DNA from: Myxococcales bacterium
GTDB lineage: Bacteria > Myxococcota_A > UBA9042
Reading direction: 5' to 3'
DNA: 64,000 nucleotides
NCBI GenBank assembly: GCA_023954815.1
Contig: JAGSHB010000002.1
Location: 21,990 to 85,989 of the forward strand
The position numbers were made by a program, and so were the translations under genes. The notes under the pieces were generated by a model. It was not told where the DNA came from. It saw only the letters and a program-made list of their open reading frames with translations, and made no database searches. Shown piece after piece: positions 23,653-28,431 of this stretch (the stretch's first letter is position 1; the number at the start of each line of letters is the position of its first letter).

Positions 23653-25860
23653 CTACAGGGTCTTTAGGTAGGCGACCAGGTCATCGAGTTGCGCCTCGGA
23701 CAGGTGGTCGGTGTGGCCCATGGTCTTCGCCGTCATCTTGAGCGCCTCTTTGAGTGTACGTGCCCGGCCGTTGTGGAAGTACGGCGCTGTATGCCAAACG
23801 CCACGTAAGCTGGGCGTATCGTAGGGCAGCGGCACGTCCGTCCACTTCACGGCGACCTTGCTCTCATTGGCGATGCGCTGCGCCACCAAGAGCCGTTCGG
23901 CGGTGTCTGCGATCCCGACGTCAAAGCTCTTCGCGTTGGTGCCTGTCCCATTGGTGTGACACGTCGCGCAGGCCACCTTTGGATCGAAAAACAGCTTCTT
24001 GCCCCGGGTCGCGGCCGCCGACAGCTGCTGCGACTGACGGTTCGGATTGGGCGGTGGCACCAGTCCCTGGGTCAAGAACGCCTCCAGCGCCGCGAGGTCA
24101 TCAGCCTTCAACCCCTTGCCGCCCATACGCTCGATGGTCTTGCCCATGTTGTTCTTCAGGGCATGTTCTGTGCCCTTCCAGTTAAATGGCGCCGTCCCCA
24201 GCAAGCGACCGGCGAGGGCTGGCGTCTGCCTTGGCTCCCCGTCGACAAACCAGACCTTCTTGTCCTCGTCGCCCTCAAAGTGACAGCTCGCACACGCGAA
24301 GCGGCTCGCCTCGGAGATGCCCTGGTTGGGGGTGTGGTGGAAGATGCGGCGCCCCTTGCGCAACAGTGGCGGCAGGGGATCGATGCCGTATGCCGCTTGG
24401 GTGGACACGAAAGTCAGCATCGGCGCTTTCAGGCGTTTGCTTGAACTAAAGGCCTGACTAGGCGTCGTAACCGCACGAGCGATCAGCGGGGCGACATCGA
24501 CCCGGCTAACCGTGAAGTCGTGGCCGTTGAGTACATAGGCCGTCTTGCCGTCGGCGCTCAGCGCCAAGCCACGGGGGCCCTGACCGACGTTGATCGCAGC
24601 CAGAGGCGCGGTGATCGGATCTTTCACGGCCGTGTTCAGCGCGAGCACGTTGTCGGTACCCGTCGCCACCAAGAAGGCCACACTCACCGACGGATGATGA
24701 ACCAAGTCGACAGGCTGATCGAAACGACTGAGGAAATCGCGGTGGGTCTCTGGATCACGCACCGGCGACGAGCCTCCGAAGTGTTTCACCTGACCCAAAC
24801 TCGCCACGCGCGGCGTCACGCTCACCTGCATCGGACGCTGCGGAATCTGCGAGCAAGCGCTCGAGCCTCCGTAACCACCGGACGACGCTTTCTGTACGTT
24901 GGTCTGTGCAACACCCCGGTTTTGCAGAGTGTGACCGACGAGGTAGCCGCCGCCTGGCGTGCCCGCAAGAGCCACCGAACGACTCGCACGATCCGTCTGA
25001 GGCTCCGTGCTCGCGCCCTGATTGACCGTGCCCTTGGACATGAAGGCGCCCGGCTCAGTCGGGTTGTGACTGCGCAGCATGCGCAGCTGAGAAGGACCGG
25101 TTTTCGGCGTGCCTTTATTCAAATCACTCAGCTTGATCTCAGAGACGCGACCCCACTCGTGGCTCACGGCGAGGTGCGGGCTGATGCTGTCGGTGCCCGT
25201 CACCACCAAGACGCGGCGAGGACGCGGCGCCGTCTTGACCGATAGCAGCTGCGTGCCCGTGTCCGTCCGCAGGGCCAACACCCGATCTTCCCCCGAAAGT
25301 GCGACCCAGAGACGACTCTCATCGGCGCTGAGCGCAAGACCGACCGGCGCAACGCCCACGGGCCACGTCTGGGCCGTTTTCGCACCCTTGGCGATCTTGG
25401 CGACCACGCCGGCGTGCCGCAGCGACACGAACGCAGTGCCATCCGCAGTCACAGTCACCAACTCAGGGCGACCTGCCAAAGCGATGGTGCGCTTGGTCTT
25501 GAGCGTCTCGCCGTCGAGTACGACCAACTTGTCGTTGTCTCTATCGACCGCAAACACCTCGCCCTGGTGAAAAGCGATGGCATGACCGGTCTGGCGCGCT
25601 GGCGTCGGCAGCGTCTCCGCTCCGAGCACAATCGGTGCCGGCATGGGCATCTTTCCCAGTCCAGGCGGTAGCGCATCAGTCGGCAACCCCTTGAATTTGA
25701 GTGGCTCGCACGCCGGAGCGCCAGGTGTCGGCATCGGCATCGGCTCGACGACGCTGGGCTCCTCAATGGTGCAGCCCGCAGGCGAGAGCAAGAGCAACGC
25801 CGCAGCCCAAAGGGGCGAACGCTGCAGGCGGGTAAACAGGGCGGGGTGAGTCACATTCAT
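23653..25860 (-). CDS. Lipoprotein with N-terminal beta-propeller fused to C-terminal di-haem cytochrome c peroxidase (CCP/MauG family) domain
   Basis: Signal peptide. Repeated propeller blades (LALSADG..Y-type). Two CxxCH (CASCH, CATCH). CCP signatures GTAPFNWKG and PSLRGVWHTAPYFHNG. Confidence 0.8.
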   Translation of the reverse strand: MNVTHPALFTRLQRSPLWAAALLLLSPAGCTIEEPSVVEPMPMPTPGAPACEPLKFKGLPTDALPPGLGKMPMPAPIVLGAETLPTPARQTGHAIAFHQGEVFAVDRDNDKLVVLDGETLKTKRTIALAGRPELVTVTADGTAFVSLRHAGVVAKIAKGAKTAQTWPVGVAPVGLALSADESRLWVALSGEDRVLALRTDTGTQLLSVKTAPRPRRVLVVTGTDSISPHLAVSHEWGRVSEIKLSDLNKGTPKTGPSQLRMLRSHNPTEPGAFMSKGTVNQGASTEPQTDRASRSVALAGTPGGGYLVGHTLQNRGVAQTNVQKASSGGYGGSSACSQIPQRPMQVSVTPRVASLGQVKHFGGSSPVRDPETHRDFLSRFDQPVDLVHHPSVSVAFLVATGTDNVLALNTAVKDPITAPLAAINVGQGPRGLALSADGKTAYVLNGHDFTVSRVDVAPLIARAVTTPSQAFSSSKRLKAPMLTFVSTQAAYGIDPLPPLLRKGRRIFHHTPNQGISEASRFACASCHFEGDEDKKVWFVDGEPRQTPALAGRLLGTAPFNWKGTEHALKNNMGKTIERMGGKGLKADDLAALEAFLTQGLVPPPNPNRQSQQLSAAATRGKKLFFDPKVACATCHTNGTGTNAKSFDVGIADTAERLLVAQRIANESKVAVKWTDVPLPYDTPSLRGVWHTAPYFHNGRARTLKEALKMTAKTMGHTDHLSEAQLDDLVAYLKTL

Positions 25861-26122: not shown

Positions 26123-27106
26123 ATGAAAAGACGACTCCGAGCCGTGCCGTGGGCCACGGCAATCCTGCTGCCCTTGACCCTCCTCACCTCCTGCGAACCC
26201 AATCGCGAGGCGCCGACGCTGTCTTGTAAGAGTTCAGCGCAGTGTCCCGCCGGGGGAACGCATTTCTGCAATCTGGCGACGAACACCTGCGAGAGCTGCG
26301 CTGGCGGTGGCTGTGCTGTGTCAGATGCGGGTAGCGACGCGGTCGTGGCAGACACGGGCGGCACAGATGCGGGCAGCACAGATGCGGTCTCGGCTGACAC
26401 ATCTACGGCCGACGCCAGCGCGACAGATGCGGCGGCGACAGATAGCATTTCTGCGGATGTGACGGGCTCCGATGCGCTGGCGCCGGACGCGCCTGACGCA
26501 TTGGCAGACGCTGTGTCCAGCGACACCATTGCGACAGACATTGCCGATAGTGATGCGGATGCGAGCAACGATACGGATGCCGGCGGCGACACAGATGTTG
26601 CGGCGGCTGATGGCGCAAGCGCGTGCGGTCACCCGGCGCAATGTGTCGGCGCGGCGATGCCAAGCTGGAAGCTGACCGATGTTCAGCCGAAAAGTCCGAA
26701 ATTCAAGACGGTCTACGGCCTATCCGGCTTTGTCGGCAAGGTGACGGTGGTCGCGTTATTAGCAGGCTGGTGAAGCTTCTGCGTTTCCCAGGCTGGGAAA
26801 CTAAACGACCTCAAAAAAGAACTCGATACCCTCAACAAGTCCGTTCATTTTGCCGCAGTCAACGCCATTAGCGCCGACTCTCCTGCCGACCAAGCGTCTC
26901 TCACTGGCGTGGCTACATTCCCGATTTTCCAGGATGTGACCGCAGTCAAAGCGTGGGAGAGCACGGGCGGCAACAAGGACGACATCTACATCTACGACAG
27001 CAAGGGCAAGCTCGCCCACTACCTGCCAGTCATCGGATCCGTCGATACCGACCTATCCGCCGGCGGCTATGCAGCGCTGAAGAAGCTCATTTTGGCGACG
27101 AAGTAG
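26123..27106 (+). CDS. Candidate selenoprotein: lipoprotein with low-complexity linker and TlpA/redoxin-like thioredoxin-fold domain, in-frame TGA (26771..26773) read as Sec in a UxxC motif
   Basis: ORFs 26087..26773 and 26909..27106 share the same frame, with no ATG/GTG/TTG and no stop between them. The TGA replaces the first Cys of the GKVTVVALLAGW-[TGA]-SFC motif. The downstream sequence completes the Trx fold (TFPIFQD...DDIYIYDSKGKL). ATG at 26123, lipobox LLTSC. Confidence 0.6.
26783..26801 (+). other. SECIS-like hairpin downstream of the in-frame TGA
   Basis: gUUUCCCA-GGC-UGGGAAAc: an 8-bp stem with a GGC loop that begins 10 nt after the UGA. The apical G lies about 20 nt from the UGA, within the bSECIS range. 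Confidence 0.4.
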
Positions 27107-28232
27107 GCTTATCTACCTTCTTCTTCCCGCCGCCGATGAGCCTCTTGCTTAGGTTATCGTAAAATATTGCGACGTTATTGGCGCGCAGCAGATCGATTGC
27201 GCGAATCTGCACGTCGCGAATCCGCACCCCCGTTAAAATGCCCTGCGCGATGTCCGCCCGGACTTTGGGATCGGTGAGCTTGCCATCCAGGGCGGGCTCG
27301 ATGCGATCGAGGCGCACGATGTGCCAGCCGTGAGGCGTGCGAATGGGCTCGCCGATGGTCCCCGGCTTGATCTTGGCGACGCCGAGCACATAGGACTCGA
27401 GCATCAGATCGTAGTCGCCCTGCTGATCGTAGGGCTTGGAGTCATCGTAGAAGTAGCTGATGTCGTTGCAGGTCACGGACGGAAACTCGCCGGTCATGTT
27501 GCGAACGCGCCCACACATGTGCTCCGGCGTCTTCGGTGGATTGGCCGTGAGCTTGCCGTAAAGCTCGTAGGCCATCGGCTGCAACTTGGTGATACAGGCC
27601 TGCGCGGTGGGGTCGATCTTGCAGCGACGCCAGTCTCCCTGGCAGCAGAGCAGCTGCGCATCGGTGACCCACCACCCCTTGGCGTGGGAATACCGCACCC
27701 GGATCGGGCTGCGTCGCCAGGCACGATCGATGTCCGCCGCCTTGACCTGCTTGGCGGTGTATTTCTCCTCAAATTCGATGCGCAACAGTCGCCGAACCAA
27801 GGCGCGTTTGTAGGGGCGAATCAGCCACCTCGCCCACAGTCCGTCTTTCTGGGCCTTCTGAGCGAGCACTTCGGCCCGAACCAGCGCATGGACAACATCC
27901 CGATTGCTGATGTGAGCAGGATAGGCGGAGCGCACCCGATCAAAATCAGCTCGAGTCACCGCTACACCGGCAACACAGGCGAGTTGATCTGGCGCTGGAA
28001 CGCCTATTTTACAAGACTTTCGCGCCCAGGGCGCTGCTGGGGAGATCCCTGTACTGGGCAGCTGCCAATGCCGACCCGCGACGGGTCCAGTTGTGTCAGG
28101 TGCCACCTCACAGCCCCCGATCAATGCCAGACAGGCTCCCAAGACCAACACAACCGCCCGCCCGATGGGATGGGTGGGCGCGCGCGTGCTGCGGTCAATT
28201 GGGGCGGTTCGGTACGGCGACTTGTTAGCCAT
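27087..28232 (-). CDS. Parvulin-type PPIase putative lipoprotein
   Basis: ATG at 28232. Signal with LIGGC. PpiC-like motif TPHGWHIVRL. Lys-rich C-terminal tail. 3' end overlaps the selenoprotein candidate 3' end by 20 nt, convergently. Confidence 0.65.
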   Translation of the reverse strand: MANKSPYRTAPIDRSTRAPTHPIGRAVVLVLGACLALIGGCEVAPDTTGPVAGRHWQLPSTGISPAAPWARKSCKIGVPAPDQLACVAGVAVTRADFDRVRSAYPAHISNRDVVHALVRAEVLAQKAQKDGLWARWLIRPYKRALVRRLLRIEFEEKYTAKQVKAADIDRAWRRSPIRVRYSHAKGWWVTDAQLLCCQGDWRRCKIDPTAQACITKLQPMAYELYGKLTANPPKTPEHMCGRVRNMTGEFPSVTCNDISYFYDDSKPYDQQGDYDLMLESYVLGVAKIKPGTIGEPIRTPHGWHIVRLDRIEPALDGKLTDPKVRADIAQGILTGVRIRDVQIRAIDLLRANNVAIFYDNLSKRLIGGGKKKVDKPTSSPK

Positions 28233-28233
28233 G

Positions 28234-28431
28234 TCACTCCTCTTTGCCCGGAAGTGCAACGCCTTGTGCGCCCGCAGTCAACTCCACAGCAGCACGCGCT
28301 GTCACCCAGGCCATAGCCAAACCAAGACCAGCGCCAAGGGGATCGCCAGCGTCCAGTGCACGGAGCCCAAAGCCGATGGGTACGCAGGAAAGGACGGCAA
28401 GGATGAGGCCGACGATCTTCATGCTGTTCAT
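28234..28431 (-). CDS. Small hydrophobic protein (65 aa), translationally coupled
   Basis: ATG at 28431 overlaps the upstream stop (ATGA). Two predicted TM segments. Stop lies 1 nt before the PPIase start. Confidence 0.4.
   Translation of the reverse strand: MNSMKIVGLILAVLSCVPIGFGLRALDAGDPLGAGLGLAMAWVTARAAVELTAGAQGVALPGKEE

What the first reader, a model, noticed from the sequence alone, without database searches (positions are those of the whole stretch)
26771..26805. SECIS-like hairpin 10 nt downstream of the in-frame UGA
The mRNA immediately after the UGA reads AGCUUCUGCG-UUUCCCA-GGC-UGGGAAA-C. It forms an 8-bp stem closed by G-C with a GGC apical loop. The loop G lies about 20 nt from the UGA. 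Bacterial SECIS elements are stem-loops starting about 11 nt after the UGA, with a conserved G in the apical loop 16-37 nt downstream. This hairpin fits those constraints. It also lies inside the coding region, as bacterial SECIS elements do.
Basis: partly seen in the sequence, partly recalled or inferred. Interest (0 to 1): 0.7.

Follow-up and report, generated by a model that had tools for sequence, protein, structure and literature searches.

The report
Genuine bacterial SECIS hairpin, thioredoxin-fold selenoprotein
The hairpin is a real selenocysteine-insertion signal inside a gene for an exported thioredoxin-like redox protein that public annotation cut short at the UGA; it is an ordinary example of a well-known mechanism, though the protein is a bacterial relative of the redox domain of animal selenoprotein P.

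Summary
Observation confirmed. An 8-bp hairpin (26783-26801, loop GGC 26791-26793, -9.2 kcal/mol) starts 9 nt after the in-frame TGA at 26771-26773.

On its own it is weak evidence. About 13% of random positions or TGA triplets in this 63% G+C window are followed by a hairpin that meets the bacterial SECIS rules.

The comparative evidence is decisive:
- 29 distinct orthologous sequences keep TGA at this codon, and almost all have a hairpin at the same distance. Four of them (the L005/L020 and L026/L027 clades) have only a weak or interrupted stem.
- 13 homologues with Cys (TGY) at this codon share no conserved hairpin.
- The stem covaries: 5 of 8 pairs carry double changes, with a covariation score of 0.284 against 0.085 for shuffles (0 of 500 shuffles reach it).
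- Synonymous sites are frozen only inside the hairpin (Gln CAG 25/25, Gly GGG 19/20, Ala GCU 19/25).
- Every apical loop carries GG.

The gene (26123-27106) encodes a lipoprotein-type signal, a linker and a thioredoxin-fold domain with a W-U-S-F-C motif. GenBank holds it truncated at 216 aa. Its best Pfam match is SelP_N, and a profile of the family retrieves fish selenoprotein P.

SelB binding and the Sec machinery of this genome could not be tested. Verdict: a true bSECIS, a new member of a known kind, of modest interest.

The parts
26123..27106 (+). Complete selenoprotein gene: 327 codons with UGA read as Sec at codon 217, ending in a TAG stop. GenBank holds only the first 216 aa (hypothetical protein KC502_00710, Myxococcales bacterium MAG).
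   Evidence: Translation. P0001 is identical to the N-terminal 216 aa. The sequence downstream of the TGA is conserved at protein level in more than 40 loci.
26123..26194 (+). Lipoprotein-type signal peptide MKRRLRAVPWATAILLPLTLLTSC, with the lipobox ending at Cys24. It is followed by a Cys-rich stretch and an Asp/Ala/Thr/Ser-rich low-complexity linker (about 26195-26640).
   Evidence: Read directly from the translation. The signal-peptide assignment is an inference from sequence pattern, not a tool prediction.
26645..27103 (+). Thioredoxin-fold (TlpA/redoxin/SelP_N-like) domain that spans the UGA.
   Evidence: Pfam SelP_N 2.1e-13 (residues 180-301), AhpC-TSA, Thioredoxin and Redoxin. NCBIfam NF053656 'TUGYCR motif thioredoxin fold (seleno)protein' at 66 bits, below its cut-off of 100.
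26771..26773 (+). Sec codon UGA, the first residue of the U-S-F-C redox motif (26771-26782).
   Evidence: It aligns with TGC/TGT (Cys) in 13 distinct homologues and with TGA in 29 distinct orthologous sequences. It aligns with the first Cys of WCGHC/WCGPC in PDB thioredoxin folds.
26774..26782 (+). 9-nt spacer between the UGA and the base of the hairpin. The spacer is 12 nt when measured to the conserved 5-bp core.
   Evidence: The core is defined.
26783..26801 (+). SECIS hairpin: 5' arm 26783-26790, apical loop GGC 26791-26793, 3' arm 26794-26801. The universally conserved core is 26786-26798 (UCCCA-GGC-UGGGA).
   Evidence: -9.2 kcal/mol. Covariation. RNAalifold consensus. Synonymous-site freezing.

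Best explanation
The hairpin is a bacterial selenocysteine insertion sequence (bSECIS) lying inside the coding region of a thioredoxin-fold selenoprotein gene.

Proposed mechanism:
1. When the ribosome brings UGA 26771-26773 into the A site, the mRNA up to roughly 11-13 nt downstream is inside the ribosome.
2. The upper stem-loop (core 26786-26798, with loop GGC closed by A-U) stands at the mRNA entrance.
3. There it is bound by the C-terminal winged-helix domain of the elongation factor SelB, which carries GTP and Sec-tRNA(Sec).
4. Tethering SelB next to the A site lets Sec-tRNA(Sec) outcompete release factor 2. Selenocysteine is inserted as the nucleophilic first residue of a U-x-x-C redox motif, and translation continues for 110 more codons.

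The product is an exported, probably lipid-anchored, TlpA/ResA-like thiol:disulfide (selenol) oxidoreductase.

Shown here:
- the hairpin and its position;
- its conservation and covariation, and its restriction to UGA-containing orthologues;
- the Sec/Cys alignment;
- the thioredoxin-fold context.

Inferred from established knowledge of bacterial Sec decoding:
- SelB binding;
- the geometry on the ribosome;
- actual Sec insertion.
For: 1. The UGA pairs with Cys. 29 distinct sequences have TGA and 13 have TGC/TGT at the same codon of a conserved W-[U/C]-x-[FY]-C motif, with protein conservation continuing after the TGA.

2. The hairpin tracks the UGA. The best local hairpin has a median of -10.7 kcal/mol in 27 Sec sequences against -5.2 in 13 Cys sequences (Mann-Whitney p = 4e-6). 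The Cys forms have no common structure.

3. The stem covaries. On 20 distinct sequences, 79% of cells are paired, 5 of 8 pairs have changes on both sides, and pair 16-28 shows UA, GC, UG and GU. The covariation score is 0.284 against 0.085 +/- 0.025 for shuffles (0/500), and all slid registers score lower. RNAalifold independently returns the 5-bp core with the GGC loop. One example: Lys AAA/AAG at column 30 follows U/C at column 14 in close relatives.

4. Synonymous sites are constrained only in the hairpin. Gln is CAG 25/25, Gly is GGG 19/20, and Ala is GCU 19/25. The other six Ala codons are GCC, and all six lie in the clade whose hairpin is shifted. Other conserved Gly, Pro and Leu codons in the same genes have a top third-base frequency of 0.33-0.5.

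5. In six sequences the sequence differs but a hairpin is kept a few nt further 3'. Their loops are GGU, A-GGA-U, GGUCU and CGGGA, at -14 to -18.6 kcal/mol.

6. All published bSECIS criteria are met: a loop of 3-9 nt, a stem of 4-16 bp, G in the first two loop positions followed by G or U, 16-37 nt from UGA to loop, and MFE of -7.5 kcal/mol or lower (for the criteria; for the values).

7. TGA is an ordinary stop in 14 of 38 long ORFs of the window, so the genome has not reassigned UGA.
Against: - No selA, selB, selD or tRNA-Sec lies in the 64-kb window or in the fetched orthologous loci. The Sec-decoding trait of this genome is therefore not shown.
- No Rfam family matches.
- In a single sequence the pattern is common: about 13% of random positions pass.
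- A synonymous-codon shuffle of the first 15 codons lowers stability only moderately (mean z = -0.92; 7 of 27 sequences at 0.05 or below).
- A strict filter on the 52-nt MFE passes only 15 of 27 Sec sequences, because alternative folds compete.
- Two clades (L005/L020 and L026/L027) have a weak or interrupted stem.
- Part of the Q-A motif is also conserved in Cys forms, so it is partly a protein-level constraint.
Confidence: 0.9

Rival explanations
1. The hairpin is a by-product of protein-level conservation of the helix that follows the CxxC motif (…C-x-S-Q-A-G-K-L…), together with codon bias. It has no RNA function, and the UGA is decoded or tolerated in some other way.
For: Gln, and often Ala, at these positions are also conserved in Cys-containing homologues. 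bSECIS-like hairpins are frequent by chance in this G+C-rich DNA. The synonymous-shuffle z-scores are modest.
Against: Third-codon positions are frozen only inside the hairpin, including GCU, a codon whose fixation fits the A20-U24 pair. The non-conserved residues flanking Q-A-G covary so as to keep base pairs. Clades with a different peptide (Q-A-S-R/G) keep a shifted hairpin. Cys forms with Q-A have no hairpin.
Confidence: 0.04
2. The TGA is a true stop. The locus is a split gene or pseudogene, or two genes, and the hairpin serves translational coupling, pausing or mRNA stability for a downstream ORF.
For: Gene callers annotate it this way: N-terminal fragments end at …GW, and separate ORFs of about 100 aa start at an ATG 10-13 codons after the TGA in many orthologues.
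Against: The split would cut a thioredoxin fold in the middle of its CxxC motif. The TGA position is conserved across sequences only 40-50% identical, with no frameshifts or extra stops. The window gene has no ATG in the corresponding region (sequence KLNDLKKEL). Cys homologues are single full-length proteins. No U-tract follows the hairpin.
Confidence: 0.03
3. The hairpin stimulates SelB-independent read-through of UGA, for example near-cognate Trp or Cys insertion, rather than Sec insertion.
For: The Sec machinery was not found in the sequence available. Downstream structures can stimulate stop-codon read-through in other systems (established knowledge).
Against: The UGA sits exactly at the catalytic Cys position of a redox motif, the hallmark of Sec/Cys pairs. 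The loops all carry the G[G/U] signature and the spacing of SelB-dependent elements. Homologues include vertebrate selenoprotein P, and the nearest NCBIfam model is curated as a (seleno)protein.
Confidence: 0.03

Closest known systems
Bacterial SECIS (bSECIS) consensus of Zhang & Gladyshev 2005, as summarised in PMC13188914. The prototype is E. coli fdhF/fdnG.
   Same: It is a stem-loop inside the ORF immediately 3' of the Sec-UGA. It has a small apical loop with G followed by G or U, 17 nt between the UGA and the loop, an 8-bp stem, and an energy below -7.5 kcal/mol. The conserved upper stem starts about 11-12 nt after the UGA, similar to the 11-nt spacing of the minimal fdhF element (the fdhF figure is from my own knowledge).
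   Different: It has no sequence resemblance to the E. coli elements. The loop is a GGC triloop (or an AGGCU pentaloop if the A-U pair opens). There is no conserved bulged U like U17 of fdhF (my own knowledge). No Rfam model matches.
NCBIfam NF053656, 'TUGYCR motif thioredoxin fold (seleno)protein'
   Same: There is full-length homology of the thioredoxin-fold domain (profile positions 1-145 of 146) with Sec/Cys at the first position of the redox motif.
   Different: The window protein and ten orthologues score 51-73 bits against a curated cut-off of 100. The motif here is [GAS]-W-U-[SG]-[FY]-C-x-[SA]-Q-A-G, not T-U-G-Y-C-R. This makes it a sister clade, not a member.
UxxC selenoproteins of the TlpA/redoxin/Prx-like type from marine metagenomes: Prx-like thiol:disulfide oxidoreductase, thiol-disulfide isomerase-like protein and redoxin family protein (PMC1088965, PMC2398784, catalogue in PMC13188914)
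   Same: They share the UxxC motif in a TlpA-like fold, a marine metagenome distribution, and coexisting Cys homologues. JGI names the Cys homologues 'thiol-disulfide isomerase/thioredoxin'.
   Different: I could not obtain the catalogued example sequences, so identity with any of these named families is untested. The best Pfam match here is SelP_N, not PF00578, PF08534 or cd02966.
N-terminal redox domain of animal selenoprotein P (Pfam SelP_N, PF04592)
   Same: It is the best Pfam hit (50.6 bits against a gathering score of 23.2). A family profile retrieves Tetraodon selenoprotein P at E = 2.6e-10 in a database of 5.8 billion sequences. The pairwise match is 31% identity at E = 5e-18, and hhalign gives 98.9% probability. 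Both have a UxxC motif at the same place in the fold (PMC2397514).
   Different: The bacterial protein has no His-rich or Sec-rich C-terminal domain. It has a single Sec, decoded through an in-ORF hairpin instead of 3'-UTR SECIS elements. It also has a lipoprotein signal and a low-complexity linker.

Membership tests
Bacterial SECIS element | In-frame UGA at a position where homologues have Cys, with coding conservation continuing downstream | tested here: met
   29 distinct TGA sequences and 13 distinct TGY sequences at the same codon, with conserved KDD[FI][YF]IYD and other motifs downstream.
Bacterial SECIS element | Stem-loop immediately downstream of the UGA, inside the ORF, with a 3-9 nt apical loop and a 4-16 bp upper stem | tested here: met
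   8-bp stem 26783-26790/26794-26801 and 3-nt loop. Criteria taken from PMC13188914.
Bacterial SECIS element | G in one of the first two apical-loop positions, usually followed by G or U | tested here: met
   The loop is GGC in the window. Orthologue loops are GGC, GGU, A-GGA-U, GGUCU and CGGGA.
Bacterial SECIS element | [quoted passage not shown] | tested here: met
   17 nt in the window and in the main clade, and 20-25 nt in the shifted clade.
Bacterial SECIS element | Free energy of -7.5 kcal/mol or lower | tested here: met
   -9.2 kcal/mol for the hairpin alone and -13.9 for 26771-26830.
Bacterial SECIS element | Structure conserved through compensatory change in Sec orthologues and absent in Cys orthologues | tested here: met
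   for covariation and synonymous constraint. for the Sec/Cys contrast.
Bacterial SECIS element | Bound by SelB; the genome encodes selA, selB, selD and tRNA-Sec | not testable with these tools
   None of these genes is in the window or in the fetched loci.
NCBIfam NF053656 (TUGYCR thioredoxin-fold (seleno)protein) | Score at or above the curated cut-off of 100 bits | tested here: not met
   66 bits for the window protein and 51-73 bits for ten orthologues.
Pfam SelP_N (PF04592) | Score at or above the gathering threshold of 23.2 bits | tested here: met
   50.6 bits, E = 2.1e-13, profile positions 10-125 of 234. Precomputed PF04592 hits are recorded on most homologues.
Thioredoxin-fold CxxC/UxxC oxidoreductase | Redox motif W-C/U-x-x-C in register with known thioredoxin folds | tested here: met
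   The U position aligns with the first Cys of WCGHC (PDI A4) and WCGPC (thioredoxin). Pfam Thioredoxin and AhpC-TSA also match. No 3D model was made.

The most novel reading that the evidence does not exclude
This clade may be the prokaryotic counterpart of the N-terminal redox domain of animal selenoprotein P, with selenocysteine at the homologous UxxC position. If so, SelenoP-N would be a selenoprotein family shared by bacteria and animals, and Sec at this site may predate, or have been exchanged with, the metazoan protein. The 2026 catalogue I read does not list it among the shared families. In the bacterial genes, the codons for the Q-A-G motif that follows the redox centre double as the SECIS core.
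Probability: 0.25. Interest if true: 0.6.

Novelty: new member of a known kind. Interest (0 to 1): 0.35.

Why it matters
- **Annotation.** It corrects a gene. A 216-aa 'hypothetical protein' is really a 327-aa exported selenoprotein. Roughly a third of the top 150 family representatives in public protein sets appear to be the same kind of fragment (my estimate from their lengths and start positions).
- **A clean SECIS example.** The family shows RNA-level selection visible as covariation and frozen synonymous sites. It also has a natural experiment: a second clade rebuilt the hairpin a few nucleotides further 3'. This is useful for training or benchmarking SECIS predictors.
- **Origin of SelenoP.** The homology to the selenoprotein P N-terminal domain offers a tractable bacterial model for the still poorly understood redox function of that domain, and a lead on its origin.

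None of this changes the understanding of the mechanism.

Tried and rejected
- **Rfam.** A gathering-threshold scan of the whole window and an E-value scan of 26740-26860 found no SECIS family, only a chance lncRNA hit.
- **Exhaustive protein search.** It was rerun with the C-terminal part only.
- **Synonymous-codon shuffle of total MFE.** This was only moderately informative. It was replaced by per-site synonymous conservation.
- **MFE-based bSECIS filter.** It showed that the rule set is permissive (13% background) and misses 12 of 27 true cases, so it cannot carry the argument on its own.
- **Other in-frame TGA candidates in the window.** The scan by GC3 gave only out-of-frame artefacts, with nothing convincing.
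- **Sec machinery.** I looked for it among 46 window ORFs and in the fetched loci and found none.
- **Alternative hairpin 26763-26795.** This hairpin contains the UGA. I rejected it as functional because the upstream CAGGCUGG copy is not conserved in orthologues and would be inside the ribosome during decoding.
- **Genome-wide UGA reassignment.** Rejected, because 14 of 38 ORFs end in TGA.
- **Literature.** The 2019 SelenoP evolution paper could not be retrieved. Searches for 'TUGYCR' and PF04592/SelP_N found nothing relevant.

Full report
**1. What is in the sequence**

The + strand reads …GCA GGC TGG TGA AGC TTC TGC GTT TCC CAG GCT GGG AAA CTA….

- TGA occupies 26771-26773.
- After a 9-nt spacer, GUUUCCCA (26783-26790) pairs perfectly with UGGGAAAC (26794-26801) around a GGC loop (26791-26793).
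- RNAfold of 26771-26830 gives this hairpin as MFE and centroid: -13.9 kcal/mol, z = -2.1, with 6 of 200 shuffles folding as well. The hairpin alone is -9.2 kcal/mol.
- In a 121-nt context a competing fold appears, because CAGGCUGG occurs twice (26763-26770 and 26789-26796). That segment as a whole is no more stable than shuffles.
- The upstream copy is not conserved in orthologues and would lie inside the ribosome when the UGA is decoded.

**2. How special is it on its own?**

Not very. I coded the published bSECIS rules: loop of 3-9 nt, G in the first two loop positions, at least 4 bp, 16-37 nt spacing, and -7.5 kcal/mol or lower (PMC13188914). I then applied them to the MFE fold of the 52 nt after a site.

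- 13.1% of 20,000 random positions and 12.8% of the 1,909 TGA triplets of this 63% G+C window pass.
- About 9% pass at -9.2 kcal/mol or lower.

**3. The gene**

Reading through the TGA gives a 327-codon ORF, 26123-27106, ending in TAG. It contains:

- a lipoprotein-type signal (…LLTSC);
- a Cys-rich stretch and an Asp/Ala/Thr-rich linker;
- a thioredoxin-fold domain.

The domain matches Pfam SelP_N (2.1e-13), AhpC-TSA, Thioredoxin and Redoxin. The UGA is the first residue of W-U-S-F-C and aligns with the first Cys of WCGHC/WCGPC in solved thioredoxin folds. GenBank holds only the first 216 residues, as 'hypothetical protein KC502_00710, Myxococcales bacterium'. TGA is a normal stop for 14 of 38 long ORFs in the window, so the code is standard.

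**4. Orthologues**

I fetched DNA for more than 50 loci by protein identity look-ups and by protein-pattern scans of genome and metagenome collections.

- 29 distinct sequences carry TGA at this codon. They come from Myxococcota, 'Deltaproteobacteria' and unclassified marine MAGs.
- 13 distinct sequences carry TGC or TGT. They come from Verrucomicrobiota, Bdellovibrionales and others.
- An exhaustive profile search found 351 cluster representatives. Many are fragments of about 100 aa that begin 10-13 codons after the UGA position, which means they are mis-called selenoprotein genes.

**5. The hairpin follows the UGA**

- Twenty distinct Sec sequences keep the core …CCCA-GGC-UGGG… at exactly the same distance, flanked by variable paired positions.
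- Six others (L007, L019, L023, L032, L045, L047) have a different sequence. They still have a strong hairpin (-14 to -18.6 kcal/mol) a few nt further 3', with loops GGU, A-GGA-U, GGUCU or CGGGA.
- The Cys forms share no structure.
- The best local hairpin has a median of -10.7 kcal/mol in Sec sequences against -5.2 in Cys sequences (Mann-Whitney p = 4e-6).
- These sequences are not phylogenetically independent, and several Cys forms come from A+T-richer genomes, so this test is only supportive.

**6. Covariation**

I used the codon-anchored, ungapped alignment A4 and the structure 13-20/24-31.

- 79.4% of cells are standard pairs, against 66.5% for shuffles.
- 5 of 8 pairs carry changes on both sides.
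- The covariation score is 0.284 against 0.085 +/- 0.025 (0 of 500 shuffles reach it). Every slid register scores lower.
- Pair 16-28 is UA, GC, UG or GU in 18 of 20 sequences.
- Pairs 14-30 and 15-29 each show four or five pair types.
- Pair 18-26 flips from C-G to G-C in L034.
- RNAalifold independently predicts the 5-bp core (16-20/24-28) with the GGC loop.
- In close relatives, the synonymous Lys codon AAA or AAG (column 30) follows U or C at column 14: Val/Ile xUU against Ala/Thr xCU.

**7. Synonymous-site constraint**

- Among 25 Sec genes, Gln+6 is CAG 25/25 and Gly+8 is GGG 19/20.
- Ala+7 is GCU 19/25. The six GCC cases are exactly the shifted-hairpin clade.
- Conserved Gly, Pro, Leu and Val codons elsewhere in the same genes have a top third-base frequency of 0.33-0.55.

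Q, and often A, are also conserved in Cys forms, so part of the motif is a protein constraint. The codon choice, the Gly, and the covarying flanks are not. A cruder test was only moderately supportive: a synonymous shuffle of 15 codons scored by total MFE gave mean z = -0.92.

**8. Mechanism**

This part is inferred from the established model of bacterial Sec decoding. With the UGA in the A site, the conserved upper stem-loop begins 10-12 nt downstream, at the mRNA entrance. SelB·GTP·Sec-tRNA(Sec) binds the G-G-containing apical loop and delivers Sec in competition with RF2. No selA, selB, selD or tRNA-Sec lies in the window or in the fetched loci. This step therefore remains untested.

**9. 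Relation to what is known**

- All structural criteria of the bSECIS consensus are met.
- No Rfam model matches.
- The protein belongs to the broad, well-catalogued class of UxxC thioredoxin-fold bacterial selenoproteins from marine metagenomes (PMC1088965; PMC13188914).
- Its nearest curated model is NCBIfam NF053656, 'TUGYCR motif thioredoxin fold (seleno)protein'. The window protein and ten orthologues fall below that model's cut-off (51-73 bits against 100). They form a sister clade with the motif W-U-[SG]-[FY]-C-x-[SA]-Q-A-G.
- The family is clearly homologous to the N-terminal domain of animal selenoprotein P:
  - It passes the Pfam SelP_N gathering threshold.
  - A profile of 11 members retrieves Tetraodon selenoprotein P at E = 2.6e-10.
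  - The pairwise match is 31% identity at E = 5e-18, and hhalign gives 98.9%.
- Lobanov et al. 2008 (PMC2397514) related SelP-N only distantly to TlpA/ResA.
- The 2026 review does not list SelenoP among the families shared by prokaryotes and eukaryotes.
- I could not check the 2019 SelenoP evolution paper.

**10. Context**

- The window is syntenic with L050-L053: peptidase M16, a divergent 735-745-aa RoxA/CCP-like cytochrome c protein, the selenoprotein gene, SpoU methylase, an FAD-binding protein and a PilZ protein.
- In L003, L007 and L054-L056, a cytochrome c plus rhodanese gene or gene pair lies immediately downstream of the selenoprotein gene.
- Other loci have unrelated neighbours.
- This recurrent but not universal link to c-type cytochromes fits a TlpA/ResA-like extracytoplasmic reductase. 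It does not establish that function.

**11. Verdict**

The finding is right. This is a genuine bacterial SECIS in an unannotated selenoprotein gene (confidence about 0.9). It is a new member of a known kind. Its interest is modest, and is raised somewhat by the selenoprotein P homology and by the unusually clean comparative signal.

Noticed in passing
window 26645-27103 (protein domain); P0200: The thioredoxin-fold domain is a clear homologue of the N-terminal domain of animal selenoprotein P, with Sec at the same UxxC position. Its best Pfam hit is SelP_N. A family profile retrieves Tetraodon SelenoP at E = 2.6e-10, and hhalign gives 98.9%. The held literature I searched does not describe bacterial Sec-containing SelP_N homologues.
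   Followed up: partly
window 23656-25860 (-); L050-L053 2717-5008 (-); L003 1771-2940; L007 6333-7457; L054-L056 6279-7345: There is a recurrent neighbourhood with c-type cytochrome genes. The window and its syntenic relatives have a divergent 735-745-aa RoxA/CCP_MauG-like cytochrome c protein. Three other lineages have a cytochrome c (cbb3-type domain) plus rhodanese gene or gene pair directly downstream. This hints at a TlpA/ResA-like role, but the link is absent in other loci.
   Followed up: partly
window 26763-26770 and 26789-26796: The octamer CAGGCTGG occurs twice. This allows an alternative hairpin, 26763-26795, that buries the UGA in a stem and is the MFE in a 121-nt context. The upstream copy is not conserved in orthologues, so it is probably incidental.
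   Followed up: yes
L007, L019, L023, L032, L045, L047 (first 54 nt after the TGA): A second clade of Sec orthologues lacks the CCCA-GGC-UGGG core. It has a stronger hairpin 3-8 nt further 3', with loops GGU, AGGAU, GGUCU or CGGGA. This looks like a natural case of SECIS turnover within one gene family.
   Followed up: partly
P0001, P0003, P0004, P0002 and many of P0005-P0212: Public gene calls split these genes into an N-terminal fragment ending …GW and a C-terminal ORF of about 85-105 aa starting at an ATG 10-13 codons after the UGA. By my estimate from the lengths and start positions, roughly a third of the 150 best cluster representatives look like such fragments, so the misannotation is widespread.
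   Followed up: partly
L023 and L047 (C-terminal about 110 residues of the selenoprotein); P0182, P0207: Some orthologues carry a C-terminal extension with repeated D-x-N-x-D-G-x-x-D-like segments. Two related database proteins have a precomputed Pfam Dockerin_1 (PF00404) hit. This suggests that some family members are anchored to or assembled on a cell-surface scaffold.
   Followed up: no
window 26195-26640: The region begins with a Cys-rich stretch (CKSSAQCPAGGTHFCNLATNTCESCAGGGC). A long Asp/Ala/Thr/Ser-rich low-complexity linker follows. It lies between the lipobox and the redox domain. Its length and sequence vary strongly between orthologues (P0001, P0003, P0004).
   Followed up: no
window 27087-27106: The 3' end of the selenoprotein gene (TAG at 27104-27106) overlaps by about 20 nt the 3' end of a convergent 390-aa ORF (27087-28259, -). 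That ORF has no Pfam match, and its position is conserved in the syntenic loci L050-L053.
   Followed up: no
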